A stretch of 64,000 nucleotides of DNA, from sequence record MN850610.1; one strand, written 5' to 3'. The notes below the pieces were generated by a model. The model had not been told where the DNA came from and ran no database searches. It saw nothing but the letters and a program-made list of their open reading frames with translations. The stretch is from Escherichia phage Andreotti. The translations under genes were made by a program, and so were the position numbers. This document shows, piece by piece, positions 1 to 17,135 of this stretch (within the stretch, counting starts at the first letter, position 1; every line of letters starts with the position of its first letter).

Positions 1-90
1 TGCAGACCACACTCAGGTCTGGCTCTCTATAAAAACCTACCTGCACAAATCTAAAATGATTTTTCTTGCCCGACCTGAGTGTGGTCTGCA
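1..90. repeat. perfect 19-bp inverted repeat (arms 1-19 and 72-90); may extend beyond window start
   Basis: tgcagaccacactcaggtc (1-19) is the exact reverse complement of gacctgagtgtggtctgca (72-90). Confidence 0.8.
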
Positions 91-227
91 CGTTTTGAAA
101 ATGAAAAAGCTCTTTGGAGATTATCTGCACAGTTTGAAAATGAATTTTCTCTTTGGAGTTCAAAATTCTCTCTACAGATTTCTCTACAGAACTCTACCTG
201 CACAATTCTGAAATGAAAAAGCCCTCC
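41..227. repeat. four degenerate direct repeats CTGCAC-N-TTTGAAAATGAA-(AAAAGC/TTTTCT)-CTTTGGAG (approx 41-68, 86-118, 125-158, 198-227)
   Basis: read directly: ctgcacaaatctaaaatga / ctgcacgttttgaaaatgaaaaagctctttggag / ctgcacagtttgaaaatgaattttctctttggag / ctgcacaattctgaaatgaaaaagc. Confidence 0.7.
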
Positions 228-289
228 TTACCTGAAAAATTTACCAGATAAGAAAGGCTTAGGCTATTGTGAATATCCTACAGAGTTTC

Positions 290-1075
290 TTAGTTCTTTG
301 CGTCTAAGAAGGTAACTTCTGGTGAAGAGAAAACTGTCTCGATATCCTCATCAGTTCTTGCATAGATATAAGTATCTGCATCACTGCCAAATGTTACTGC
401 AATCCTGTGATTGCTCTTCGACAGGTGGGTAACTAGAGCGTTACTCAGAGACATCTTTTCAACCGGAGGGTTACTTTGATGTATCTTACCTTTTCTTCGT
501 CTGAAGAGGGTAACTGCGTTATCTGTGAACACTGCTACACCTGCAAAGTATTCTGGTTCACAGTAGTTCTTCCAACCTGAGCGTAACTTGTGGTACATCT
601 CTCCTTCGTAGACATAAAGATACACATCTACACTCTTCATCACCTGATTAATGATAACTGTGACGGCTTGAGGGTCTAGCCCACCGATACCTGCACCAAT
701 CATAGGTAAACCAACCTTCTTCAACTGGTTGACTTCACAGTATCTGTTAAGCTGCTTCAAAGATGACTCTAAAGCACTGTATCGGGCATCTTTACCAGTC
801 TTAAGCTGAGTGTAAAGGTTAGCTATACGGCCTTGTTCTAAACGTGCTACAGAGAAATTACCCAGTAAATTTTCACAGGGTTTGTGGCCTATACCACCTG
901 CATATAGATAAACTTCTGTATCGGTCTCATATGCTTTTGGGTAAAGTTTAGAAATCTTGTCAGCGATACCTGCACCCATTAAATTCATACAGTTGCAACC
1001 GTGACCGATGATGTCAAACTTACCTTTATCAAATGCGGCAAAGATATCACCATTGATTATTTTTACAATACCCAT
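290..1075 (-). CDS. macro-domain-like (ADP-ribose binding/processing) protein, N-terminal half; C-terminal half unassigned
   Basis: N-terminus IINGDIF...DIIGHGCNCMNLMGAGIADKI fits the macro-domain pattern (GDIT...N...G.GV..AI); family assignment from motif only. Confidence 0.4.
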   Translation of the reverse strand: MGIVKIINGDIFAAFDKGKFDIIGHGCNCMNLMGAGIADKISKLYPKAYETDTEVYLYAGGIGHKPCENLLGNFSVARLEQGRIANLYTQLKTGKDARYSALESSLKQLNRYCEVNQLKKVGLPMIGAGIGGLDPQAVTVIINQVMKSVDVYLYVYEGEMYHKLRSGWKNYCEPEYFAGVAVFTDNAVTLFRRRKGKIHQSNPPVEKMSLSNALVTHLSKSNHRIAVTFGSDADTYIYARTDEDIETVFSSPEVTFLDAKN

Positions 1076-1276
1076 TTAACATCTCTCCCAAGACTCTTTA
1101 TCTTCTGAAGGTTTTACACGCTGTCCTTCGTGGTCTACCCAGATGCACCCACAACCTTCACAGATTACTGGCATTGCGTAGCCAGCTTTAAAGTCATCTT
1201 CAGTGATAAGACCTTTTAAGTCACCTGTATCACGTCCGAACATTTCGATAGAACAATCTTTACAGAAGTCAGCCAT
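1076..1276 (-). CDS. small Cys-rich (zinc-binding?) protein; start moved to ATG at 1276 (MADFCKDCS...)
   Basis: CxxC...CEGCGC motifs; GAGG Shine-Dalgarno about 10 nt upstream of the internal ATG; the upstream part of the track ORF overlaps the neighbouring gene. Confidence 0.4.
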   Translation of the reverse strand: MADFCKDCSIEMFGRDTGDLKGLITEDDFKAGYAMPVICEGCGCIWVDHEGQRVKPSEDKESWERC

Positions 1277-1496
1277 GAATAATTGCCTCTTGAATGATGA
1301 TACCTTTACCACAACGACTTTTAAAGTCTTCCAATGGTTCAGAGATGAAGCCACGTAAGCAGTCAGTGAATACTAAGTTCTTCCTGTAAGCTATCACATC
1401 ATTTGCTGTAAATGGGATGACCTCATTTCGTCCAATGAACACTGCTGACCTGATAAGCTTTCGTGTCTTTTTATCTCTGGCTAGTATTACTTTCAT
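1269..1496 (-). CDS. hypothetical protein
   Basis: co-directional ORF, 8-nt overlap with downstream gene; no recognisable motif. Confidence 0.4.
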   Translation of the reverse strand: MKVILARDKKTRKLIRSAVFIGRNEVIPFTANDVIAYRKNLVFTDCLRGFISEPLEDFKSRCGKGIIIQEAIIHG

Positions 1497-1797
1497 AGTT
1501 TACCTTCTCAGTTAGCTCATATAAATCAACATGCTCAATACTATCAATGTTGATATCAATCTTTTTGAAGCGTTCTATCACTTCGTTGTCAGTCATCCAT
1601 ATCAGACACCAATGATTCTGAATGGATTCTTCAAGAAGGTCAACACAATCTTTAAAAGTTTTTGTGTCACTTCTTGTTCCGACCACTGCAATTGTTCCAT
1701 ATAGCCACTTACCATTGCCGTAAGTTACTTGTGCTACACCAACCTCTTTATCTTTCTCGTAGTAAACGGCTACAAAATCTCTTCCATTAATCTGCAT
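1471..1797 (-). CDS. hypothetical protein
   Basis: co-directional ORF in tightly packed block. Confidence 0.45.
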   Translation of the reverse strand: MQINGRDFVAVYYEKDKEVGVAQVTYGNGKWLYGTIAVVGTRSDTKTFKDCVDLLEESIQNHWCLIWMTDNEVIERFKKIDINIDSIEHVDLYELTEKVNYESNTSQR

Positions 1798-1799
1798 AG

Positions 1800-2069
1800 T
1801 TACTTCCTCGTTTTAAGAACTGCTAAGATTTCTTTAGAGTCTGGTAAGAACCATGTGTAGTGATTCTCTTTGATTTCTGGATGAGTGTCAACCTTTATTT
1901 TGCACTCTTTACCAACATGCTTAAGCTGTGCTGTGACACCTTGCATAAAGATATGACACATCACATTATCCATAATGGTTGGTAAGAAGTCAATTCGCAT
2001 ATAAGTTTCTTTTGGTCGTGGTAACAGTAAGTAACCTTCTACATAGAAAGTGTCTTGATTCTCTGTCAT
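1800..2069 (-). CDS. hypothetical protein
   Basis: co-directional ORF, 2-nt gap to upstream gene. Confidence 0.45.
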   Translation of the reverse strand: MTENQDTFYVEGYLLLPRPKETYMRIDFLPTIMDNVMCHIFMQGVTAQLKHVGKECKIKVDTHPEIKENHYTWFLPDSKEILAVLKTRK

Positions 2070-2335
2070 TGCTGCTTATTCCCTAATAAAATCATGTCAA
2101 TAAGGTTATTAGCTTTAATTGTACACTGGTAAAAGCCGTCACGGTAGAACTCAAGTGCTTCTGCTACATCACTGCCTGTGTTGCCTTTGATGATATACCG
2201 TGACTCTTCTTGAGTGTACTTATCACTCTCACTTACTTGGGAGTTTTTGAATGTACTGTTCACTTTGTTCGTTGAACACCCTGACATAGTTATCAGTAAC
2301 ACAAACATTATAAAACTCTGGCTTAGTTTTTTCAT
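2066..2335 (-). CDS. o-spanin candidate (outer-membrane lipoprotein), overlapping the 3' end of the upstream gene
   Basis: N-terminal signal MKKLSQSFIMFVLLITMSGC with lipobox-like MSGC; start lies inside 2229-2576 in another frame, the classic overlapped Rz/Rz1 arrangement. Confidence 0.4.
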   Translation of the reverse strand: MKKLSQSFIMFVLLITMSGCSTNKVNSTFKNSQVSESDKYTQEESRYIIKGNTGSDVAEALEFYRDGFYQCTIKANNLIDMILLGNKQQ

Positions 2336-2576
2336 ATGTTAGTACCTCTTTTGTATGCTTATTCTTAGCAAGCACATCTTTCAAATCATTTTTGTAATTG
2401 GTGCTCAGTGTGACTAATCCTTCCTGATAAGCATCTTTAGCAACACTTATGAGCTTTTGATTGTTTAGCTCAGTTTCAGCAACTTGATAGTCTCTGTAAG
2501 AGTATCCTCCCCAGACACCTGCACCAACTAAGAAAACAATTATGAAAGTAGCTTGACAGAACTCTTTAAATGTCAT
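2229..2576 (-). CDS. i-spanin candidate (N-terminal TM anchor plus periplasmic helical domain)
   Basis: hydrophobic segment ATFIIVFLVGAGVWGGY then charged helical region; overlapped by lipoprotein ORF. Confidence 0.4.
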   Translation of the reverse strand: MTFKEFCQATFIIVFLVGAGVWGGYSYRDYQVAETELNNQKLISVAKDAYQEGLVTLSTNYKNDLKDVLAKNKHTKEVLTYEKTKPEFYNVCVTDNYVRVFNEQSEQYIQKLPSK

Positions 2577-2595
2577 TTAACAATCTCCTGAAATG

Positions 2596-2616
2596 AAAAA
2601 GGCTCCCGAAGGAGCC
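2596..2616 (-). terminator. intrinsic terminator (hairpin ggctcc-cgaa-ggagcc followed by U-run on minus-strand transcript)
   Basis: plus strand shows A5 then GC hairpin; downstream of gene ending at 2629. Confidence 0.55.
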
Positions 2617-2628
2617 TGTATCTTAACC

Positions 2629-3093
2629 TTAACCGAGGACTTTAGCAAGGATATTTGCAGCCATCGAAGAAGCTTTTGCAGCAGCAACTACGCCAGCTTT
2701 GACAGTGCTATCCTTGATAGCAGATACCGTTGCAGCATCAGTAAAGAGATAAGTAGTTGTTTTAGAACCACTTGTAAAGGAAAGCATAAGAGCAGTTTCC
2801 AGATTGAAAGAGCGATACGGAGCACCTTCTTTAACGATACCTTCAGCACCTAATTCTGAAGCCATCCCCATATCATAGATAGTCATCAGGTTTTCTTTGT
2901 GTGCTGTGGTTGAGCCAGAACCTTTTACGTGTTTCTTAACATTCAAAAGAGCACGATACTCTCGGATGTTACCGTCTGCTTTTACGTTGACAGCACGGAA
3001 AATTTTACCCTCAAAGTTGCTCTTGATAATGTTACGAACTACTTCAGATTTGTTTGCCGTAACGTCCAGTGCTACCGTAATGATATTGTTCAT
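2629..3093 (-). CDS. hypothetical protein
   Basis: co-directional ORF; no recognisable motif. Confidence 0.5.
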   Translation of the reverse strand: MNNIITVALDVTANKSEVVRNIIKSNFEGKIFRAVNVKADGNIREYRALLNVKKHVKGSGSTTAHKENLMTIYDMGMASELGAEGIVKEGAPYRSFNLETALMLSFTSGSKTTTYLFTDAATVSAIKDSTVKAGVVAAAKASSMAANILAKVLG

Positions 3094-3103
3094 AAGTTTT
3101 CTC

Positions 3104-3799
3104 TCAATGTTTAACTAACATGGTTTTGATGTGTGGAAGTATTCTGTTCACCTTCTGCACATTCTTCTCTGTGTCTTCTATAAAACATACTATATTAAAG
3201 TAAGGCAGAATGCAAGACTGAATCATCCTCACTTTCAAACTTTCTGCACTTATAGAGTTAGTCCCAAAACCACGCATAAAAAGCATGTAGTCATGCTCTG
3301 TGTTATGCCTTAAAAACATCTCAGTAGGTATTCTCTGAGATTCACCTCTCGCTGTCAAGAGTCCAATGGCAGCATGACTAGCAATTGCATCAATAATACT
3401 AAAGACATACGTTGGTTTTGCTCTTACAGAGTCAAGAAGATTAGTGTACTGTGAGAATGACCCATCAGTCAATTCCGTTGAGCAATCTTCGTGATTAAAA
3501 TTTGTAAGAACACCATCAATATCTGCTAAGATGAGGTTACCTTTTTCTACAAGGTCTTTATTGACTATGACTAAACTGTCACGTCTTACACCTATAGATT
3601 GTCCGGTCTCTTTGTCCACAACGTTCACAATTGGCTCTGATGTGTGAAACTCTTCAAGTGAACATACAACTTCTCTTGCAGTGTCTTCAAAATCCCTACA
3701 CTGTTCTGGAGTCCATACACAGGAATCAAGACCTAACTCATGAGGATGTAAGTCATAAGCATGGCACAGTACTTCATCAGACTTTTTTAATTTTTTCAT
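3104..3799 (-). CDS. HAD-superfamily phosphatase, possibly 5'(3')-deoxyribonucleotidase-like
   Basis: LILADIDGVLTNF resembles the DxDGVLxDF motif I of HAD/NT5C enzymes; motif sits about 90 aa from the N-terminus, so assignment is tentative. Confidence 0.35.
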   Translation of the reverse strand: MKKLKKSDEVLCHAYDLHPHELGLDSCVWTPEQCRDFEDTAREVVCSLEEFHTSEPIVNVVDKETGQSIGVRRDSLVIVNKDLVEKGNLILADIDGVLTNFNHEDCSTELTDGSFSQYTNLLDSVRAKPTYVFSIIDAIASHAAIGLLTARGESQRIPTEMFLRHNTEHDYMLFMRGFGTNSISAESLKVRMIQSCILPYFNIVCFIEDTEKNVQKVNRILPHIKTMLVKH

Positions 3800-4325
3800 G
3801 GTTTACCTTAGAAATGTTTATTGCAAATTCACATTGAGCGATGACTTTCATATTGTTATAGACATCTTGAGAGTATTTCTTAGCTTTAGGAATTTTGTAC
3901 GAATACCCAGCATTATATGATGCTAAAACTTTTTGTAAAGTCTTCTTTGACTTTGGCTGACCATGCACCTTTGTCCAAAACTCAAGCTCTTTGTGCGTTT
4001 CCTTCGCAGCATAGTCAAAGTCTTTTAAGAGTTTCTTTTTAGCCACATTAGGACTAATTTTGTTACGCTTTACAACAGTCTTCAAGTGATTCTGGAAAAT
4101 ACCATAATCATGTGTCTTTTTATTCTCTACCTTCAGACCTAACTCTGACTCTTGTAAGGCTATAGCAGCTAGAGTGATACCCCAACCTTTACCCATGTTA
4201 TTCTCACCATACTGGTAAGCTTTTAACATGTTTACTTTTTGGCTAATTGATAGCTCTGGGCAGTCAACTGCATAAGATAAGTGTGCTGTAAACATTAAGC
4301 ACAAACCTAGAATCAATTTCTTCAT
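3777..4325 (-). CDS. soluble lytic transglycosylase (SLT domain) with N-terminal signal peptide; endolysin candidate
   Basis: signal MKKLILGLCLMFTAHLSYA; SLT motifs AIALQESELG (catalytic Glu), GIFQ, SYNAGY. Confidence 0.65.
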   Translation of the reverse strand: MKKLILGLCLMFTAHLSYAVDCPELSISQKVNMLKAYQYGENNMGKGWGITLAAIALQESELGLKVENKKTHDYGIFQNHLKTVVKRNKISPNVAKKKLLKDFDYAAKETHKELEFWTKVHGQPKSKKTLQKVLASYNAGYSYKIPKAKKYSQDVYNNMKVIAQCEFAINISKVNHEKIKKV

Positions 4326-8556: not shown

Positions 8557-10338
8557 TTAAAGCTGCTTGTCAATATTATTTCGAATATCTCCAAGAGTTG
8601 TATAACCGAACTGCTCAGAGTCGCTAAAGACTAAACGTAAAGCACAAGCTTGGTGGTCAAGTACATCTGCAAAACTCTGGAATCCATAGCCATCTACAGC
8701 TTTCAGCTTATCACCATCCCACATAGGTGCTACACCACCAAAGGCAGATTTCTTAACACCACTATCTGTTTTAGGGTCTTTTGCAAGCATAATCTCTTTA
8801 CCACCAATGCTTGCAAGAGTTGCTTTGACAGCAAATGCAAAGGTGTCACGAGTCATGTACTGGTAAGTGTAAGAGCCTACACCAAACACTACGTTAGAGC
8901 TTGCAAAACCCATTTCATACAGACGCTTCAGGATTTCGTTTGCACGTTCCAGCGTGATAGAGTCACCATAGATAAGGCCGATGTGCTCATCCAGTACCTT
9001 AAACCCTTTAGAGTTAATAGTCCCTCCGAAGATGTTGTACAGGGTCTTAATAGCTCCATCAATCTCTGCTACAGGACGTGTTACAACGTTTGCAGAGCCA
9101 ACCATATAAGCATTTTTCAACATCACTGTATCAGCAACTCCAAAGTCTTCTCTGTCAACAACCATTTCGTAGCCTTCTGACAGTAGCCATCCAGCAATAC
9201 CATAGTTGATGTTTTCAAGCTTCATGTTCAGAACAGCATTCAACATTGTGTCACTAGCTTCCAGCTTGCTTAGGTGCTCATAATAAGCCTTCTTAGCACA
9301 CTCTAAGTGGATTGCTTTATAGCCTGTGACAATATGTACAGGGTCTCCAGAGTCAGGGCGAATTACCAGCTTACCATCACGTTCCATAATTTCTTTACGA
9401 AGTGCTGGTAAGATTTCTGACACAGTTCTCCAGAAGTTATAAGTATCTGAAACAATACTTGCAATACCAGTTGGGTAAGTTTCTGTTAAGAAACGACGGA
9501 AGGTTTGCAACTCACCTTTAAAGCGTCTTTCCTCTTCAATCAATTCATTACCACCTTCCCAAGCAATGTTTGCACACATTACAGAGTGTTCAGTGGCTGG
9601 TACAGAACTACCAATATCAGAAATTGGGTAAGACTGTCCATAGATGCGTTTAGCCGTGTATACAGCAGGGAAGCTATCAGTTCCTTTAAAGCTGGTTAAG
9701 TGACCTACAGCATTAAATGCGTCATCGGTAAAGCCGGACATACCACGCATAGCAAAGTCATGGCACTGATAAGGTAAATGTAAGTCATTGTCGCAAGTAA
9801 GGTCAGCCCACTTCTTACAGATACGTTTGTAGTGCAATGCAATAGTTGCAATGGTGCAAGTCTTCCAAATCTCAGCAGAGAAAGCATCTTCCAGATAACC
9901 TGCTACCCAATGGAAACCTGAAACAGTGTTCTGGAAGACAATCATTGGAACACACATAGGAACAACTGTACCTTCTTCTACAGCGTATACTTCAACTGGT
10001 AGATAGCCTAAATCGTGAAGTGCTTCCCAATGCTCTCGACCGATAGCATCTTTACCCAGAACACCATTCATGACTTCTAAGATTTCGTCAACTGCTTCTT
10101 TTTTATCACGTTCAAAGAAAGTGGCGTTCCAGTGGTCTATCAGGTAATCTTTAACGAAACGTTGAATACCAAAAGCTACTACACCATCAATTGCTAAGGG
10201 GCTGTTAAACCATTTGTCACTACGTGGTGTCAGGTTGAACATCAAGTATTCTGTTGCACTAGGGTACTGGTAAACATGACCAGATTTGTAAGCATCTGCG
10301 TTTAAACCTGCTGGTACTGCGTAAAGCGATTTAGTCAT
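8557..10338 (-). CDS. nicotinamide phosphoribosyltransferase-like protein (NAMPT/NadV family, or the related Namat)
   Basis: 593-aa ORF directly downstream of a Prs-like gene; assignment rests on size and gene pairing known from Felix-O1/KVP40-type phages, not on a verified motif. Confidence 0.5.
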   Translation of the reverse strand: MTKSLYAVPAGLNADAYKSGHVYQYPSATEYLMFNLTPRSDKWFNSPLAIDGVVAFGIQRFVKDYLIDHWNATFFERDKKEAVDEILEVMNGVLGKDAIGREHWEALHDLGYLPVEVYAVEEGTVVPMCVPMIVFQNTVSGFHWVAGYLEDAFSAEIWKTCTIATIALHYKRICKKWADLTCDNDLHLPYQCHDFAMRGMSGFTDDAFNAVGHLTSFKGTDSFPAVYTAKRIYGQSYPISDIGSSVPATEHSVMCANIAWEGGNELIEEERRFKGELQTFRRFLTETYPTGIASIVSDTYNFWRTVSEILPALRKEIMERDGKLVIRPDSGDPVHIVTGYKAIHLECAKKAYYEHLSKLEASDTMLNAVLNMKLENINYGIAGWLLSEGYEMVVDREDFGVADTVMLKNAYMVGSANVVTRPVAEIDGAIKTLYNIFGGTINSKGFKVLDEHIGLIYGDSITLERANEILKRLYEMGFASSNVVFGVGSYTYQYMTRDTFAFAVKATLASIGGKEIMLAKDPKTDSGVKKSAFGGVAPMWDGDKLKAVDGYGFQSFADVLDHQACALRLVFSDSEQFGYTTLGDIRNNIDKQL

Positions 10339-10383: not shown

Positions 10384-11265
10384 TCAATCAATGGTTGCTA
10401 CAGTAACTTGGGCGTAATGTGTTAAGCCACGGTCTTTAGCTTCACCTAAAGTGTTTGTAGTGTAGATATGGTCAATACCGTTGTCAAGTAAGTTTTCAAC
10501 ACCTTTAGAGAAAATACCATGAGTTACATAGAGTTCCACACGTTTTGCACCTGCTTCACGTAGGTGTTTAGCTGCCTCTACGAAGGTTCGACCACCATCA
10601 CAGATATCATCAAGAATCATGACAGTTTTATCGGTCAAATCAACATCGTCAAGGATTCGCATACCAGTGATTTCTCCAGTCTTAAGATTGCGCACCTTAG
10701 ACATTGTGATATACGGTTTATCCACCTCTTTAGCGGTATCTTCAGTCTTCTTAGCTGCACCTGCATCTGGGGCTACCAAGAAATCAATGCGTGGGTCACT
10801 TGCAAAGTGTACTGCCACATCTTTTTGCTTCATGCTTTGAAAGCACTTAAATAAGTTTTCTGCAACATTACTGTGAGGGTCAAGAGCACATACTGCATCA
10901 AAACCCATTGCATTAACTAGGTTGGCAAAGACTTTCAGTGCTGCTGCATCACCTTTGAACATGTGGCGGTCATATCGAGCATTTGGTAAGAACCCGAAAA
11001 CAACGGTTTTCATCGCTGATTTCTGGGGAACAAGACTGTCAACGGCATCCTTAGCCAAAGCTAATGCAAACAGTGTATCTTTGTCATATCCCTGTACAGT
11101 AATTATAACATTATCAATCTTACCAGCATTACGCTCAGTAAACTTAACAAAATCTTCAGAGAAGTTTCCACCAATTTCTCCAGATGGGAATTGAATGATA
11201 TTAAATTTTTCTGTGTGGAAGAATTTCTCTTGAGCGGTGACGACGGCTTCAATAACAGTTTTCAT
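10384..11265 (-). CDS. ribose-phosphate pyrophosphokinase-like protein (Prs family; could be ADPR-PP synthetase type)
   Basis: PRPP-binding motif VMILDDICDGGRTF near C-terminus; start moved to ATG at 11265 (MKTVIE), preceded by a purine-rich GAGAGAG stretch. Confidence 0.6.
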   Translation of the reverse strand: MKTVIEAVVTAQEKFFHTEKFNIIQFPSGEIGGNFSEDFVKFTERNAGKIDNVIITVQGYDKDTLFALALAKDAVDSLVPQKSAMKTVVFGFLPNARYDRHMFKGDAAALKVFANLVNAMGFDAVCALDPHSNVAENLFKCFQSMKQKDVAVHFASDPRIDFLVAPDAGAAKKTEDTAKEVDKPYITMSKVRNLKTGEITGMRILDDVDLTDKTVMILDDICDGGRTFVEAAKHLREAGAKRVELYVTHGIFSKGVENLLDNGIDHIYTTNTLGEAKDRGLTHYAQVTVATID

Positions 11266-11276
11266 AGTTTTCTCTC

Positions 11277-11555
11277 TCAATCAAAAGTTACGTTTGTTAC
11301 TGCCATTGCAGATTTGCATTTTGCAGGGTCTACAACGTGATAAAGTACACTACAGTTACCTGTGCTGTCTGGTACAGGCTTTACCCATTGCTGCTTTATA
11401 TTTGGCTCCCCTAAGTCTTTGTAAGAGCCATCTGTAAAGTTGTTTACCATCTCAAGTGCAATTGGTTCTGGAACATGCCCACGTATCATGTACATTTCAC
11501 AACCATTACCGCCTTCACTGACTAATGGTAAAATCTCCCACTTCTCTTTAGCCAT
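11277..11555 (-). CDS. hypothetical protein
   Basis: co-directional ORF. Confidence 0.45.
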   Translation of the reverse strand: MAKEKWEILPLVSEGGNGCEMYMIRGHVPEPIALEMVNNFTDGSYKDLGEPNIKQQWVKPVPDSTGNCSVLYHVVDPAKCKSAMAVTNVTFD

Positions 11556-14248: not shown

Positions 14249-15115
14249 TTACATAGAAATCCTGTCACGAATCTCAGCGATTTTTGCATCATTCATTCGG
14301 GATTCACCTTTAATCTTAGTCCATCCCAGATATCCGCACACCCTGTTAATCACAGAGATGTCATGTGAATGGCAAACCTCACATTCTTCAACATCAGCCT
14401 TTGGTCTGTTACCACAATGTTCACAGATTGCTAAGTCAAAGTTAAGTCCCTGATAGAAACCTTTCAACATACCTCTTGTAATACAACTTTTAAGTGCTGG
14501 TAAGTTTTCTGGGTTAGCTACCCTTACATACTGGATTCTGCCACCTCTACAGATATGGAAGAATGGCTCTTCTAAGTCCTGCTTCTCAAATGGTGAGATG
14601 TTTGCTGCAACATTCATATGGAAACTGTTTGTAAAGTATTCCTTGTCAGAAACGCCTTTAATAACACCAAACATATCTCTGAACTGTTTTAGCTGAGTTC
14701 CACACAATGACTCTGCTGGAGTGCCATATACTGCATACAGGAAGCCATCTTCATTCTTAAACTCTTCAGTTTTCATGTTAATGTATGCCAGAACATCGTA
14801 TGCAAAACTAGAACTTCCAACTTCATGAAGTCGTTTACCTTCAGCAAGAACAGATAACTCATCAAGAGCAGTAACCCCAAAAGAAGCTGTGAAGGATTTC
14901 ACAATATCCCAACCAACCTTGTCAGTAGGCTTCTTAGTCCCTTTATACAGACCACCTTGTGTGAATGCAAGAGGGTTAGAACTTGCTGGCATATTGGCAA
15001 TCATTTCGTAACGTTTCTTATGGAAGCTGCGAATCATTTCTAGGTACTTATCAAGCTCTTTCCAGAAATCTAAACCATTCTCTTTAGAATACTGGTAAAT
15101 CATTGGTAAGTTCAA
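14249..15115 (-). CDS. nrdD: anaerobic ribonucleoside-triphosphate reductase, C-terminal part (exon 2)
   Basis: glycyl-radical motif RVCGYLG and Zn ribbon CEHCG...CEVC at C-terminus; exon boundary not determined, track start is only the first Met. Confidence 0.7.
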   Translation of the reverse strand: MNLPMIYQYSKENGLDFWKELDKYLEMIRSFHKKRYEMIANMPASSNPLAFTQGGLYKGTKKPTDKVGWDIVKSFTASFGVTALDELSVLAEGKRLHEVGSSSFAYDVLAYINMKTEEFKNEDGFLYAVYGTPAESLCGTQLKQFRDMFGVIKGVSDKEYFTNSFHMNVAANISPFEKQDLEEPFFHICRGGRIQYVRVANPENLPALKSCITRGMLKGFYQGLNFDLAICEHCGNRPKADVEECEVCHSHDISVINRVCGYLGWTKIKGESRMNDAKIAEIRDRISM

Positions 15116-15935
15116 AGATACAGCACCAATGTTAGCACGACCTACATAAAACTCTTCACCATCTTCGTTATGGTATGGTGATAAAAACGCTCTACACTTG
15201 TTGTTCAGGTAAGTTCGCTACGCTTACCCCGCTTTATTCAAGCTGCTTACTGTCACCAGTAAGTCCAGACTATATCTTCTACTTATTTCTAAGTAGCGTA
15301 CCATTTCGAGTCGCTTGACCCTACACCGCTACATTCATCACGGTTAGTCGTTTGGCATTTAGATGTATTCAAATTCATGTTCAAAGTTATTATGTTCTTT
15401 TACACCCTTCAGTATTGAAGAGATAGTCTTGCGATTATACCCAAGTATCTTGGATAACTCTCGTATCGAGTTCGCAACAATAACTTCTTTTGTTACTTTG
15501 TGTGTAGCCTTCACAGCATATGAACGCTTACAAAACTTGTAGCAACCATTCTCATAACCTTCTTTAACATTCTCAGAATGAGTTCCCCATTCTAAGTTAG
15601 AAGCATGGTTATTCAGTTTGTTATCATCTTTGTGTTTTACAATTGGAAGATTGTTCGGGTTAGGTACATATTTCTCAGCAACTAACCTATGAACATACAT
15701 GTCACGATTCTTCTTACCGTAAAACCTCACTTTCATATACCCAGTGTTGGATTTCCACTGCTTAAGTTCTACACCATTTTTCCTAAAGACTCTTCCGTCT
15801 TCAGTAACATGATAATTTGGCATGTAATACTCCTATGTTGTATAGTTTCTTACATCGTACATCATTTAGCACAGGATTGTCTACATCTGTAGAGTTTCCC
15901 TGTTTAGGCACGTTTTAGATGAGCTATAGAGCCTG
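15116..15935 (-). mobile_element. intervening sequence splitting nrdD, probably a self-splicing (group I-like) intron carrying an HNH homing endonuclease; boundaries approximate
   Basis: nrdD reading frame broken by stop at 15936 and resumed downstream; insertion contains a free-standing HNH ORF plus non-coding flanks; T4-type phages carry introns in nrdD. Confidence 0.45.
15359..15823 (-). CDS. HNH homing endonuclease (intron-encoded)
   Basis: HNH motif HKDDNKLNNHASNLEWGTHSEN; C-terminal helix-turn-helix-like region. Confidence 0.6.
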   Translation of the reverse strand: MPNYHVTEDGRVFRKNGVELKQWKSNTGYMKVRFYGKKNRDMYVHRLVAEKYVPNPNNLPIVKHKDDNKLNNHASNLEWGTHSENVKEGYENGCYKFCKRSYAVKATHKVTKEVIVANSIRELSKILGYNRKTISSILKGVKEHNNFEHEFEYI

Positions 15936-17135
15936 TTAACCCATCGGTGAAATAACCTTGCCAGAACGCTCAAAAGCTTCTGCTACAGCACCATGACCAG
16001 ATACACTTAAGAAATCTGGATACATTGCTTTAGAGCAACACTCAATAGCTTTACTGTACAGGTGTCCTTGACAGATATTCTCATCGTGTCTCTTCTGGTC
16101 ATAAATATAAACCAGTTTAGGGAATACAACAGGCTTCTTGCTCTTACCTTGTCCATTCATACGAACATCTAGGAGAGTACTTGCAATCATGTATTGCAGT
16201 CGGTTATCTTCATTGGACATATCTGAGTCAAGTAACCCGAATGTCAAAGTTGTAAATGCAAAATCCCCACGGCTACAAGGCACAGTGTTTAGCTTCATTT
16301 CAAGTGACTGGAAACCTTGAGTCAGTTCAATCTGTAGCTGCTCCATGACATAGTTGTGGTAATGTTCTTTAGGAATACCATAAGCTGTTGCTTTTTCAGC
16401 ATGGTAACGTAGAGACTTCTTAGCATACGGTACAAGTACCTTATCAATCTCTGCTAAAGTAAAGCCACCAAATTGCTGTGCAGTTGCTGAAAGAACTACA
16501 TCACCAATAACCTGTAAGGCTGATAGTACAGACTTTGGTTCACAATATTCAATGCCAGACATTTCAAAGCCACCTTTCAGGACTTTACCAATGTCAAACA
16601 GACAACAGTTGATACCACCAAAAATTAGGTCTCTTAAGTCATGGATATAAATAAACCCTTTTTCAATGGCTTCAAGTTCCTCTGGTGTTAAGTGGTACTG
16701 TTTAAAGATTTCTTTAGTCAGGTAACCACGAATAATTGAACCTTTTGTAGAAATTAAACTGCTGTCAAAATTAGCGTTTTCTCGGTCACCTAAGAAGAGT
16801 GTATCCTTAGTCTTCTGGTAAAGTTCATCCCAATTTTGAGCAACTTCTTTACGGTAATTTCTATATGTTGAGTAAGACTCATAAATCTCGTGATTGACTT
16901 CTGCCAAAGCACCCTCAACAATACTGTGAATATCATTTACTGAAATTAGCAAATTATTCTGTTTAGTAGATTTTACCAGAATCCTCATAAATGCTGACTC
17001 AAGAGCTTGAGTAACATCTGGTGGAAGCTCTTTATAACCAACTCTGTTAGCTGACTTTGTGACTGCTACTAAAACTTTTTTGATATCAGGTTCTTCAAGT
17101 GAGCCATTCTTTTTAATAATCTGTACTTTGTTCAT
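15936..17135 (-). CDS. nrdD: anaerobic ribonucleoside-triphosphate reductase, N-terminal part (exon 1)
   Basis: about 400 aa upstream partner of the glycyl-radical C-terminal part, adjacent to nrdG; terminates at an in-frame stop before the insertion. Confidence 0.6.
   Translation of the reverse strand: MNKVQIIKKNGSLEEPDIKKVLVAVTKSANRVGYKELPPDVTQALESAFMRILVKSTKQNNLLISVNDIHSIVEGALAEVNHEIYESYSTYRNYRKEVAQNWDELYQKTKDTLFLGDRENANFDSSLISTKGSIIRGYLTKEIFKQYHLTPEELEAIEKGFIYIHDLRDLIFGGINCCLFDIGKVLKGGFEMSGIEYCEPKSVLSALQVIGDVVLSATAQQFGGFTLAEIDKVLVPYAKKSLRYHAEKATAYGIPKEHYHNYVMEQLQIELTQGFQSLEMKLNTVPCSRGDFAFTTLTFGLLDSDMSNEDNRLQYMIASTLLDVRMNGQGKSKKPVVFPKLVYIYDQKRHDENICQGHLYSKAIECCSKAMYPDFLSVSGHGAVAEAFERSGKVISPMG

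What the first reader, a model, noticed from the sequence alone, without database searches (positions are those of the whole stretch)
290..1075. Macro-domain-like protein: possible ADP-ribose processing or anti-defence role
The N-terminal half carries a macro-domain-like signature (GDI...DIIGHGCNC...MGAGIADKI), and the C-terminal about 120 aa is unassigned. Macro domains bind or hydrolyse ADP-ribose derivatives, so a phage copy could reverse host ADP-ribosylation or degrade ADP-ribose-derived signals. Together with the Prs-like/NAMPT-like pair this suggests investment in NAD+/ADP-ribose metabolism.
Basis: partly seen in the sequence, partly recalled or inferred. Interest (0 to 1): 0.5.

Follow-up and report, generated by a model that had tools for sequence, protein, structure and literature searches.

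The report
Phage anti-DarT macrodomain with extra domain
This Felix O1-type phage gene encodes an ADP-ribose-removing macrodomain related to phage T4's anti-DarTG2 factor AdfM, so it most likely strips a host defence toxin's ADP-ribose marks off phage DNA, and it carries an extra 104-residue domain, of unknown role, found only in this phage subfamily.

Summary
Window 290-1075 (minus strand) is an intact 261-aa ORF. Residues 1-157 are a genuine macro domain (Pfam 32.1 bits against a cutoff of 22; AF2 pLDDT 91; the nearest folds are TARG1, DarG and Poa1p).

The window is a Felixounavirus. The macro domain aligns end to end with T4 Tk.4 (35% identity, E 2e-24, same PHROG 335). Tk.4 was named AdfM in 2025 because deleting it sensitises T4 to DarTG2. 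The family has an invariant Thr-Gln where TARG1 and DarG have the catalytic Lys. SCO6735, a proven thymidine-ADP-ribose DNA hydrolase, has the same Gln.

The most likely function is removal of DarT2's ADP-ribose from phage ssDNA. This rests on homology and was not tested on this protein.

The Prs/NAMPT-like pair about 7.5 kb away looks like the known NARP1 system and is mechanistically separate. This is a modest variant of a known kind.

The parts
290..1075 (-). Complete CDS (261 aa plus stop codon): two-domain macrodomain protein, the orthologue of Felix O1 ORF13 / Felix01p025 'phosphatase'
   Evidence: ORF list. It is 98.7% and 97.1% identical to Felix O1 over the two halves and matches PHROG 335 at E 2e-113. 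Felix O1's annotation reads '17.5 kD protein in tk-vs intergenic region'.
605..1075 (-). Macro domain (residues 1-157), of the T4 Tk.4/AdfM type within the TARG1/DarG/Poa1p-like group
   Evidence: Pfam Macro covers residues 25-141. Alignment to T4 Tk.4 residues 2-152 gives 35% identity, E 2e-24. The family profile hits TARG1 at 9e-17, M. tuberculosis DarG at 2e-16, Poa1p at 3e-14 and SCO6735 at 1e-13. Foldseek target TM-scores are 0.77-0.87.
992..994 (-). Codon for Asn28, the conserved active-site Asn (equivalent to DarG N22, SCO6735 N27 and PhiKZ AdfM N23)
   Evidence: Invariant across the family. It aligns with T4 N25 and PhiKZ N23. Mutating this Asn lowers activity in DarG, SCO6735 and PhiKZ AdfM.
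806..811 (-). Codons for Thr89-Gln90 of the invariant NLYTQ motif. Gln90 occupies the position of the catalytic Lys of TARG1 (K84) and DarG (K80), as Gln85 does in SCO6735
   Evidence: The profile alignment places NLYTQ against TARG1 YLITK (numbering checked). Papers give SCO6735 Gln85 as equivalent to K84/K80, and Q85A is inactive. The Gln is invariant in 30 family members.
680..700 (-). Codons for I126-G-A-G-I-G-G132, the glycine-rich phosphate-binding loop
   Evidence: G127 and G129 are invariant. The loop aligns with TARG1 IGCGLDR, and TARG1 D125 aligns with G131. SCO6735 G126 and G128 are functionally important.
293..604 (-). C-terminal domain (residues 158-261): a linker helix, six β-strands and a short helix. 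It is lineage-specific and its function is unknown
219..260 (-). Terminator-like hairpin followed by a T-run, 30 nt downstream of the stop codon; probably the end of the transcription unit
   Evidence: Consensus scan: a 17-bp stem followed by TTTCATTTCA. This is a pattern match only.

Best explanation
The gene encodes an anti-DarT2 counter-defence enzyme of the T4 Tk.4/AdfM type. When the host DarTG2 toxin-antitoxin system is triggered, DarT2 uses NAD+ to ADP-ribosylate thymidines in single-stranded phage DNA and so blocks replication. The N-terminal macrodomain binds the ADP-ribose moiety through the HGCNC/MGAGIA and IGAGIGG loops. It hydrolyses the ribose-thymine bond, releasing free ADP-ribose and restoring the DNA. 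Catalysis is of the SCO6735 type: Gln90, held in place by Asn28, positions the distal ribose for water-mediated cleavage, and there is no nucleophilic Lys as in TARG1 and DarG. The C-terminal β-rich domain (158-261) is an Ounavirinae-specific appendage that packs against the macrodomain. Its role is unknown; my best guess is that it tunes substrate or partner recognition. Shown here: the fold, the homology, the conserved active-site residues, the domain boundary, purifying selection and the taxonomic restriction. Inferred: the substrate (dT-ADPr DNA), the DarTG2 target, the catalytic mechanism, and everything about the C-terminal domain's role.
For: Macro domain and fold. Full-length homology to T4 Tk.4: 35% identity, E 2e-24. 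Same PHROG 335 as T4 Tk.4 and PhiKZ AdfM. It is the only macro gene in the window. T4 tk.4 was the single HIDEN-SEQ hit on DarTG2, and a clean knockout sensitised T4 (bioRxiv 10.1101/2025.11.20.689424). The only NCBIfam and PADLOC hit is DarG: 48 bits at E 1e-12, and 47.7 bits. Both are stronger than T4 AdfM's own DarG hits of 30 and 36 bits. H25, N28, T89-Q90, G127 and G129 are invariant. They correspond to SCO6735 H24, N27, Q85, G126 and G128. SCO6735 hydrolyses dT-ADPr DNA and protects against DarT, and its Q85A and N27S mutants lose activity (PMC9411070). PhiKZ AdfM shows biochemically that a phage macrodomain removes DarT2 marks (PMC13309987). Strong purifying selection: ω 0.07. The gene lies in the rIIA/rIIB/PNK leftward cluster, which has sigma-70-like promoter matches. 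That fits the early expression such a factor would need, but this is inference.
Against: Nobody has tested this protein, or any Felixounavirus, against DarTG2; literature searches found nothing. For T4 Tk.4 itself the evidence is genetic and from a preprint, and DNA de-ADP-ribosylation is inferred there too. The biochemically proven phage AdfM (PhiKZ gp104) belongs to a different, DarG-type lineage that retains the Lys. It is only 23% identical to the window protein, E 3e-4. The family is about equally distant from TARG1, DarG, Poa1p and SCO6735 (54-65 bits), so sequence alone does not fix substrate specificity. SCO6735's DNA-positioning lysines (K34, K89) have no clearly conserved counterparts. 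The extra C-terminal domain could redirect specificity. One relative fuses this macro type to a cyclic-phosphate-processing cREC_REC domain, which shows the clade is used in other contexts.
Confidence: 0.6

Rival explanations
1. The macrodomain reverses ADP-ribosylation of a different macromolecule. Candidates are RNA or protein modified by another host defence ADP-ribosyltransferase, or by a phage enzyme. The C-terminal domain would supply that different target specificity.
For: TARG1-group macrodomains, including SCO6735, also act on protein substrates. The family is equidistant from several enzymes with different substrates. The lineage-specific, faster-evolving C-terminal domain (47% identity against 76% between Felixounavirus and Mooglevirus; ω 0.19 against 0.07) is what a specificity or partner-binding module might look like.
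Against: The closest characterised relative (T4 Tk.4) has a DarTG2-specific phenotype. The only defence-library hit is DarG. No ADP-ribosyltransferase was seen among the neighbours examined. No alternative target is indicated by any result.
Confidence: 0.15
2. It is a small-molecule ADP-ribose derivative hydrolase. That would be the ADP-ribose-1''-phosphate phosphatase implied by the database label 'phosphatase' (Poa1p-like), or an O-acetyl-ADP-ribose deacetylase. Either would serve nucleotide or RNA-repair metabolism rather than defence evasion.
For: Poa1p is among the top sequence and fold neighbours (56 bits; target TM 0.77). The shared HxCNC motif is visible in the T4-Poa1p alignment. GenBank and PHROG label the family 'phosphatase' or 'A1pp'. 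A polynucleotide kinase lies 2 kb upstream. A relative is fused to a cyclic-phosphate-processing domain.
Against: The 'phosphatase' label is an old transfer by homology, not an assay. No Tpt1/KptA 2'-phosphotransferase or RNA ligase, which would generate Appr-1''-p, is annotated in the Felix O1 regions examined or found among the window ORFs scanned. Poa1p has Ser where this family has the invariant Gln, and Poa1p S30 aligns with Leu32 here (alignment combined). T4 Tk.4's phenotype is defence-specific.
Confidence: 0.1
3. It acts mainly by binding rather than catalysis. In this reading the C-terminal domain, or the macrodomain surface, sequesters DarT2, making the protein a functional analogue of full-length DarG. 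This reading also covers the protein acting as a sponge or hydrolase for ADP-ribose-derived immune signals such as Thoeris His-ADPR or gcADPR.
For: Full-length DarG inhibits DarT through its non-macro part as well. Catalytically dead SCO6735 inhibits DarT strongly by interaction. Phage AdfB neutralises DarT purely by binding. Macro domains can bind His-ADPR, as in type II Thoeris ThsA. A two-domain layout with a fast-evolving second domain fits an arms-race interface.
Against: The C-terminal domain has no sequence match to DarG models beyond the macro part and no structural match to anything solved. Its net charge is not conserved (-3 to +4, pI 4.9-9.4). That does not fit a conserved acidic ssDNA mimic like DarG's C-terminal domain. 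All catalytic-site residues are invariant under strong purifying selection, which argues that catalysis matters. There is no evidence at all for signal binding.
Confidence: 0.08

Closest known systems
T4 Tk.4 = AdfM (anti-DarT factor Macrodomain; bioRxiv 10.1101/2025.11.20.689424)
   Same: Homologous over the whole of Tk.4 (35% identity, E 2e-24). Same PHROG 335. Same signature motifs: HGCNC, MG(A/S)G(I/V)A, NLYTQ and P-x-IGAGIG. Same Gln at the catalytic-Lys position. Both lie in the early or accessory gene region of a virulent enterobacterial myovirus, and both phages have a Vs.1-like gene upstream on the same strand.
   Different: T4 AdfM is a single domain of 155 aa. The window protein has an additional 104-aa C-terminal domain that is absent from T4-like phages. 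The anti-DarTG2 phenotype is shown only for T4.
Streptomyces coelicolor SCO6735 (PDB 5e3b), thymidine-ADP-ribose DNA hydrolase
   Same: TARG1/ALC1-like macrodomain with Gln in place of the catalytic Lys and no Asp of the TARG1 dyad. The Asn, His and Gly-x-Gly residues shown to matter in SCO6735 are invariant here. Profile E-value 1e-13.
   Different: It is a bacterial, single-domain, DNA-damage-regulated orphan enzyme. Its DNA-positioning lysines K34 and K89 are not clearly conserved here. Sequence similarity is remote.
DarG2 antitoxin of DarTG2 (T. aquaticus and M. tuberculosis; PDB 5m31, 5m3e, 5m3i; NCBIfam NF048014)
   Same: Best defence-family match. Top structural neighbours. Same expected reaction (removing ADP-ribose from thymidine in ssDNA). 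Two-domain layout with the macrodomain at the N-terminus.
   Different: The score is far below the equivalog cutoff (48 against 250 bits). Gln replaces the catalytic Lys80. The C-terminal domain is unrelated to DarG's DarT-binding domain by sequence and gave no fold match. There is no adjacent darT.
PhiKZ gp104 AdfM (Cell Rep 2026, PMC13309987)
   Same: A phage-encoded macrodomain in PHROG 335 with the conserved active-site Asn. It is biochemically shown to erase DarT2 marks and to rescue cells from DarT2 toxicity.
   Different: It belongs to a different lineage: it is DarG-type (E 9e-25 to M. tuberculosis DarG, with the FPTK..W motif and the Lys retained). It is only 23% identical to the window protein. 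It is a single domain and is imported into the phage nucleus.
Human TARG1/OARD1 and yeast Poa1p
   Same: Nearest solved structures by sequence profile and by fold.
   Different: TARG1 uses a Lys84/Asp125 dyad; here these positions are Gln90 and Gly131. Poa1p is an ADP-ribose-1''-phosphate phosphatase with Ser at the Gln position. Neither has the C-terminal domain.

Membership tests
Macro domain (Pfam PF01661) | Profile score above Pfam's gathering threshold | tested here: met
   32.1 bits against a cutoff of 22, E 1.2e-7, residues 25-141 covering profile positions 2-117 of 118.
Macro domain (Pfam PF01661) | Three-layer alpha/beta/alpha macro fold | tested here: met
   AF2 model with pLDDT 91 and pTM 0.89. 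Foldseek hits to TARG1, DarG and Poa1p at E about 1e-10, with TM 0.77-0.87 on the target.
Macro domain (Pfam PF01661) | ADP-ribose binding | not testable with these tools
   The binding-loop motifs (MGAGIA, IGAGIGG, Asn28) are conserved, but binding itself needs an experiment.
AdfM, T4 Tk.4 type | Homology to T4 Tk.4 over its full length, in the same phage protein family | tested here: met
   35% identity, E 2e-24, Tk.4 residues 2-152. Both are in PHROG 335. It is the only match to Tk.4 in the window.
AdfM, T4 Tk.4 type | Shared active-site residues (His, Asn, Thr-Gln, Gly-x-Gly) | tested here: met
   H25, N28, T89, Q90, G127 and G129 are invariant in alignments that include T4 Tk.4.
AdfM, T4 Tk.4 type | Single-domain protein of about 155 aa | tested here: not met
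   The window protein is 261 aa with an extra domain at 158-261.
AdfM, T4 Tk.4 type | Protects the phage from DarTG2 | not testable with these tools
   Shown only for T4. No report for any Felixounavirus was found.
DarG antitoxin (NCBIfam NF048014 equivalog) | Score above the equivalog cutoff | tested here: not met
   48 bits against a cutoff of 250. Only profile positions 4-154 of 338 are matched.
DarG antitoxin (NCBIfam NF048014 equivalog) | Catalytic Lys (K80) | tested here: not met
   Gln90 occupies the TARG1 K84 / DarG K80 position (the K84/K80 equivalence comes).
DarG antitoxin (NCBIfam NF048014 equivalog) | C-terminal DarT-binding domain | tested here: not met
DarG antitoxin (NCBIfam NF048014 equivalog) | Encoded next to darT | tested here: not met
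   The neighbours are small phage ORFs, spanins and PNK. None is annotated or detected as an ADP-ribosyltransferase.
SCO6735-type (Gln) TARG1-like DNA ADP-ribosylhydrolase | Gln at the catalytic-Lys position, supported by the conserved Asn | tested here: met
   Q90 and N28 are invariant. The Q position aligns with TARG1 K84, and the paper states that SCO6735 Q85 is equivalent to K84. The equivalence is by transitivity; no direct residue alignment to 5e3b was printed.
SCO6735-type (Gln) TARG1-like DNA ADP-ribosylhydrolase | DNA-positioning lysines (K34, K89) | tested here: inconclusive
   The window has K40, K92 and K95 nearby, but these are not conserved in T4 Tk.4 or across the family.
Poa1p-like ADP-ribose-1''-phosphate phosphatase | Poa1p active-site residues (H23 and S30 were the mutants deposited) | tested here: inconclusive
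   The His is conserved (H25). Poa1p S30 aligns with T4 T29, and so with window Leu32 (combined). Poa1p has Ser where this family has Gln90. I did not verify the effect of those Poa1p mutations.

The most novel reading that the evidence does not exclude
The Ounavirinae-specific C-terminal domain is a new, structurally unprecedented module that either binds and blocks DarT2 directly or retargets the macrodomain. In the first case the phage protein would be a convergent analogue of full-length DarG, combining an eraser with a toxin inhibitor in one chain. In the second case it would direct the enzyme to a different ADP-ribosylated substrate or defence system than T4 AdfM handles.
Probability: 0.15. 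Interest if true: 0.6.

Novelty: new variant of a known kind. Interest (0 to 1): 0.35.

Why it matters
If correct, this extends the recently recognised AdfM counter-defence to the Felix O1-like phages. These are widely used for Salmonella and E. coli typing, biocontrol and therapy, and DarTG2 carriage by a host could otherwise limit them. It also replaces the uninformative 'phosphatase' label carried by more than 200 genomes. The work highlights that the two proteins now called AdfM come from different macrodomain lineages with different catalytic residues (Lys in PhiKZ, Gln in T4 and Felix O1). The fused orphan domain is a concrete, testable handle on how a phage eraser enzyme might be tuned: compare full-length against residues 1-157. 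Together with NARP1 in the same genome, it shows that this phage group carries at least two separate answers to NAD+-based immunity.

Tried and rejected
1. C-terminal domain as a homologue of DarG's DarT-binding domain. Rejected: no match to DarG profiles beyond the macro part and no fold match.

3. C-terminal domain as a conserved basic DNA binder or acidic DNA mimic. Not supported: net charge ranges from -3 to +4 across the family.

4. Remote relatives of the C-terminal domain elsewhere. The exhaustive HMMER profile search found only the same two-domain family, two truncated fragments (P0032, P0039), and β-propeller or other repeat proteins matched in many short stretches. I regard these last hits as β-hairpin-repeat similarity rather than homology, but this is a judgement.

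5. The abutting upstream Cys-rich 66-aa ORF as a conserved partner. Rejected: it is conserved in Mooglevirus (92%) but is replaced by an unrelated ORF in Pectobacterium phage Wc4, which still has the two-domain protein.

6. RNA-repair context (PNK nearby) implying Appr-1''-p phosphatase. Weak: no 2'-phosphotransferase or RNA ligase was found in the annotated Felix O1 regions or the scanned window ORFs.

7. A second macro gene or a paralogue of the C-terminal domain in the window: none.

8. A structured RNA in or around the locus: no Rfam match in window 1-1400.

9. Literature on Felix O1 or Bas63 against DarTG, or on the Felix O1 macro domain: nothing found. LeRoux et al. 2022 is not held.

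Full report
**Observation.** Window 290..1075 holds a single ATG-initiated ORF of 261 aa on the minus strand, with nothing of 40 aa or more on the opposite strand. Pfam's Macro model matches residues 25-141 at 32.1 bits, above its gathering cutoff of 22. PHROG 335, labelled 'phosphatase', matches residues 1-260 at E 2e-113. The one correction is that the unassigned C-terminal part is about 104 aa, not about 120.

**Source and annotation.** The window is a Felix O1-like myovirus (Felixounavirus, Ounavirinae). Bases 1-3200 are 95-98% identical to about 200 such genomes. The gene is the orthologue of Felix O1 ORF13 / Felix01p025. It is the last gene of a leftward cluster that starts with rIIA and rIIB and includes a polynucleotide kinase and the spanins. 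A terminator-like hairpin sits 30 nt after its stop codon.

**The macro domain.** Residues 1-157 align with the whole of T4 Tk.4 (155 aa) at 35% identity, E 2e-24. A 30-sequence family profile hits these solved structures:
- TARG1: 9e-17
- M. tuberculosis DarG macrodomain: 2e-16
- Poa1p: 3e-14
- SCO6735: 1e-13
- T. aquaticus DarG: 1e-13

An AlphaFold2 model is confident (pLDDT 91, pTM 0.89). Its nearest solved folds are the same proteins, with TM 0.77-0.87 on the target. Every hit covers only the first 155-180 columns or so. The only NCBIfam and PADLOC hits are the DarG antitoxin models, over their macrodomain part only. The NCBIfam hit (48 bits) is far below that model's equivalog cutoff of 250 bits.

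**What is known about the relatives.**
- T4 tk.4 was the single significant HIDEN-SEQ hit on a DarTG2 host. A clean knockout sensitised T4 to DarTG2, and the gene was named adfM (bioRxiv 10.1101/2025.11.20.689424).
- Independently, PhiKZ gp104 was also named AdfM. It was shown biochemically to remove DarT2's ADP-ribose from a TNTC oligonucleotide and to rescue cells from DarT2 toxicity (PMC13309987).
- These two proteins are not the same lineage. PhiKZ AdfM matches M. tuberculosis DarG at E 9e-25 and keeps the FPTK..W motif with the catalytic Lys. T4 Tk.4 is closest to BT1257 and Poa1p, and matches DarG only at about 5e-4.
- The window protein is of the T4 type. It is 23% identical to PhiKZ AdfM, E 3e-4.

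**Active site.** Across the family the motif NLYTQ is invariant. Its Gln (Q90) aligns with TARG1 Lys84, and TARG1 Asp125 aligns with Gly131. TARG1 K84 corresponds to DarG K80, the residue whose mutation inactivates DarG (PMC5179494). A Gln at this position has a characterised precedent. S. coelicolor SCO6735 has Gln85 there, and its Q85A/E and N27S mutants are inactive. The enzyme cleaves thymidine-linked ADP-ribose on DNA and protects against DarT (PMC9411070). The window protein's invariant H25, N28, Q90, G127 and G129 correspond to SCO6735 H24, N27, Q85, G126 and G128. N28 also aligns with PhiKZ N23, whose mutation lowers AdfM activity. SCO6735's DNA-positioning lysines have no clearly conserved counterpart. 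So the macrodomain looks catalytically competent, with a Gln-type rather than Lys-type site.

**The C-terminal domain (158-261).**
- Structure: the model shows a linker helix, six β-strands and a short helix. Modelled alone it is less confident (pLDDT 77). The high pTM of the full-length model suggests that it packs against the macrodomain.
- Sequence searches: it has no Pfam, NCBIfam or PADLOC hit.
- Exhaustive profile search: a profile of the domain searched against 1.84 billion representatives found 11 proteins. These were the same two-domain family, two truncated fragments of it, and β-propeller or other repeat proteins hit in many short stretches. I take the last group to be β-hairpin similarity rather than homology.
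- Distribution: tblastn finds the domain in 242 phage records, all Ounavirinae-type. A very divergent two-domain version occurs in Pectobacterium phage Wc4, also Ounavirinae.
- Selection: it is a real, constrained domain. All 28 copies checked are intact, and ω is 0.19, against 0.07 for the macrodomain.
- Rate: it evolves faster. Against Moogle it is 47% identical, the macrodomain 76% and the neighbouring small ORF 92%.
- Charge: its net charge is not conserved, ranging from -3 to +4. That argues against both a dedicated DNA binder and an acidic ssDNA mimic of the kind described for DarG's C-terminal domain.

**Mechanism proposed.** The protein most likely removes DarT2-installed ADP-ribose from thymidines in single-stranded phage DNA, using a SCO6735-like Gln-assisted, water-mediated hydrolysis. 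This would restore replication on DarTG2-bearing hosts. The C-terminal domain modulates this in an unknown way. The fold, homology, conserved residues, selection and distribution are shown here. The substrate, the target system and the chemistry are inferred from relatives. I put confidence at about 0.6.

**Rivals.**
- Another ADP-ribosylated macromolecule as substrate: 0.15.
- Small-molecule processing, meaning the Appr-1''-p phosphatase implied by the old 'phosphatase' label or an O-acetyl-ADP-ribose deacetylase: 0.10. This is weakened because no 2'-phosphotransferase or RNA ligase was found in the regions examined.
- Action mainly by binding DarT or an ADP-ribose-derived signal: 0.08.

**The Prs/NAMPT remark.** The adjacent ORFs 10384-11280 (Pribosyltran/Pribosyl_synth) and 8557-10338 (NAPRTase/NAMPT_N) are real. 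They match the description of NARP1 (Adps plus Namat). NARP1 was discovered in Bas63, itself a Felixounavirus. It rebuilds NAD+ from ADP-ribose and nicotinamide to counter NAD+-depleting defences. The hydrolase's product, free ADP-ribose, is formally a NARP1 substrate. No evidence links the two, and they lie about 7.5 kb apart.

**Verdict.** The thing found is a Felixounavirus member of the T4-type AdfM family with a lineage-specific orphan domain. That makes it a variant of a kind that has been known since 2025-2026, and interest is modest (0.35). The open question worth an experiment is what the extra domain adds.

Noticed in passing
window 1-231: The region just downstream of the gene and its terminator-like hairpin is rich in repeats. 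There are three copies of a 35-nt unit (starting at 85, 124 and 197; TCTGCAC..TTTGAAAATGAA..CTCTTTGGAG) and two copies of a 36-nt unit (24, 181). There is also a tandem TCTCTACAGA (169, 181) and a 23-nt inverted repeat (1-23 / 68-90). The core motif is essentially confined to this spot (3 of 4 window matches, against 0.07 expected by chance). There is no Rfam match. The window starts inside this region, so it may be truncated.
   Followed up: partly
window 1076-1276 (-): A 66-aa Cys-rich ORF (CxxC ... CxxCxC, possibly zinc-binding) ends immediately before the macro gene's ATG. It belongs to PHROG 2210 (unknown function). It is 92% identical in Mooglevirus, much more conserved than its neighbour, but Pectobacterium phage Wc4 has an unrelated ORF in its place.
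   Followed up: partly
window 8557-10338 (-) and 10384-11280 (-): An adjacent NAMPT-like (NAPRTase plus NAMPT_N) and Prs-like (Pribosyltran plus Pribosyl_synth) gene pair. It fits NARP1 (Namat plus Adps), the NAD+ reconstitution pathway first described in the Felixounavirus Bas63. I did not verify this by direct comparison with the Bas63 proteins.
   Followed up: partly
window 14249-15115 (-) and 15936-17135 (-): The anaerobic ribonucleotide reductase NrdD is split into two ORFs (Pfam NRDD profile positions 284-560 and 1-250). They are separated by about 800 bp containing another ORF (15359-15823). This suggests an intron or homing-endonuclease insertion.
   Followed up: no
literature; L002:6923-7390 (T4 tk.4) compared with PhiKZ gp104: Two independent studies gave the name AdfM to proteins from different macrodomain lineages. 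PhiKZ gp104 is DarG-type with the catalytic Lys. T4 Tk.4, like the window protein, is BT1257/Poa1p-like with Gln at that position. PHROG 335 lumps both together.
   Followed up: yes
P0026 (metagenomic relative, 339 aa): A relative of this macro type is fused at its C-terminus to a cREC_REC 'cyclic-phosphate processing receiver' domain instead of the Ounavirinae domain. This shows that the macrodomain clade accepts different C-terminal partners.
   Followed up: no
window 3777-4325 (-), equivalent to L001 10057-10605: This 182-aa ORF is the counterpart of Felix O1 ORF3. That gene is annotated as the homologue of T4's '20.7 kD protein in vs-regB intergenic region' (Vs.1). As in T4, it lies upstream of the Tk.4 homologue on the same strand, possibly a remnant of shared gene order. 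It has a weak, sub-threshold SLT transglycosylase match (18.8 bits against a cutoff of 21.3).
   Followed up: no
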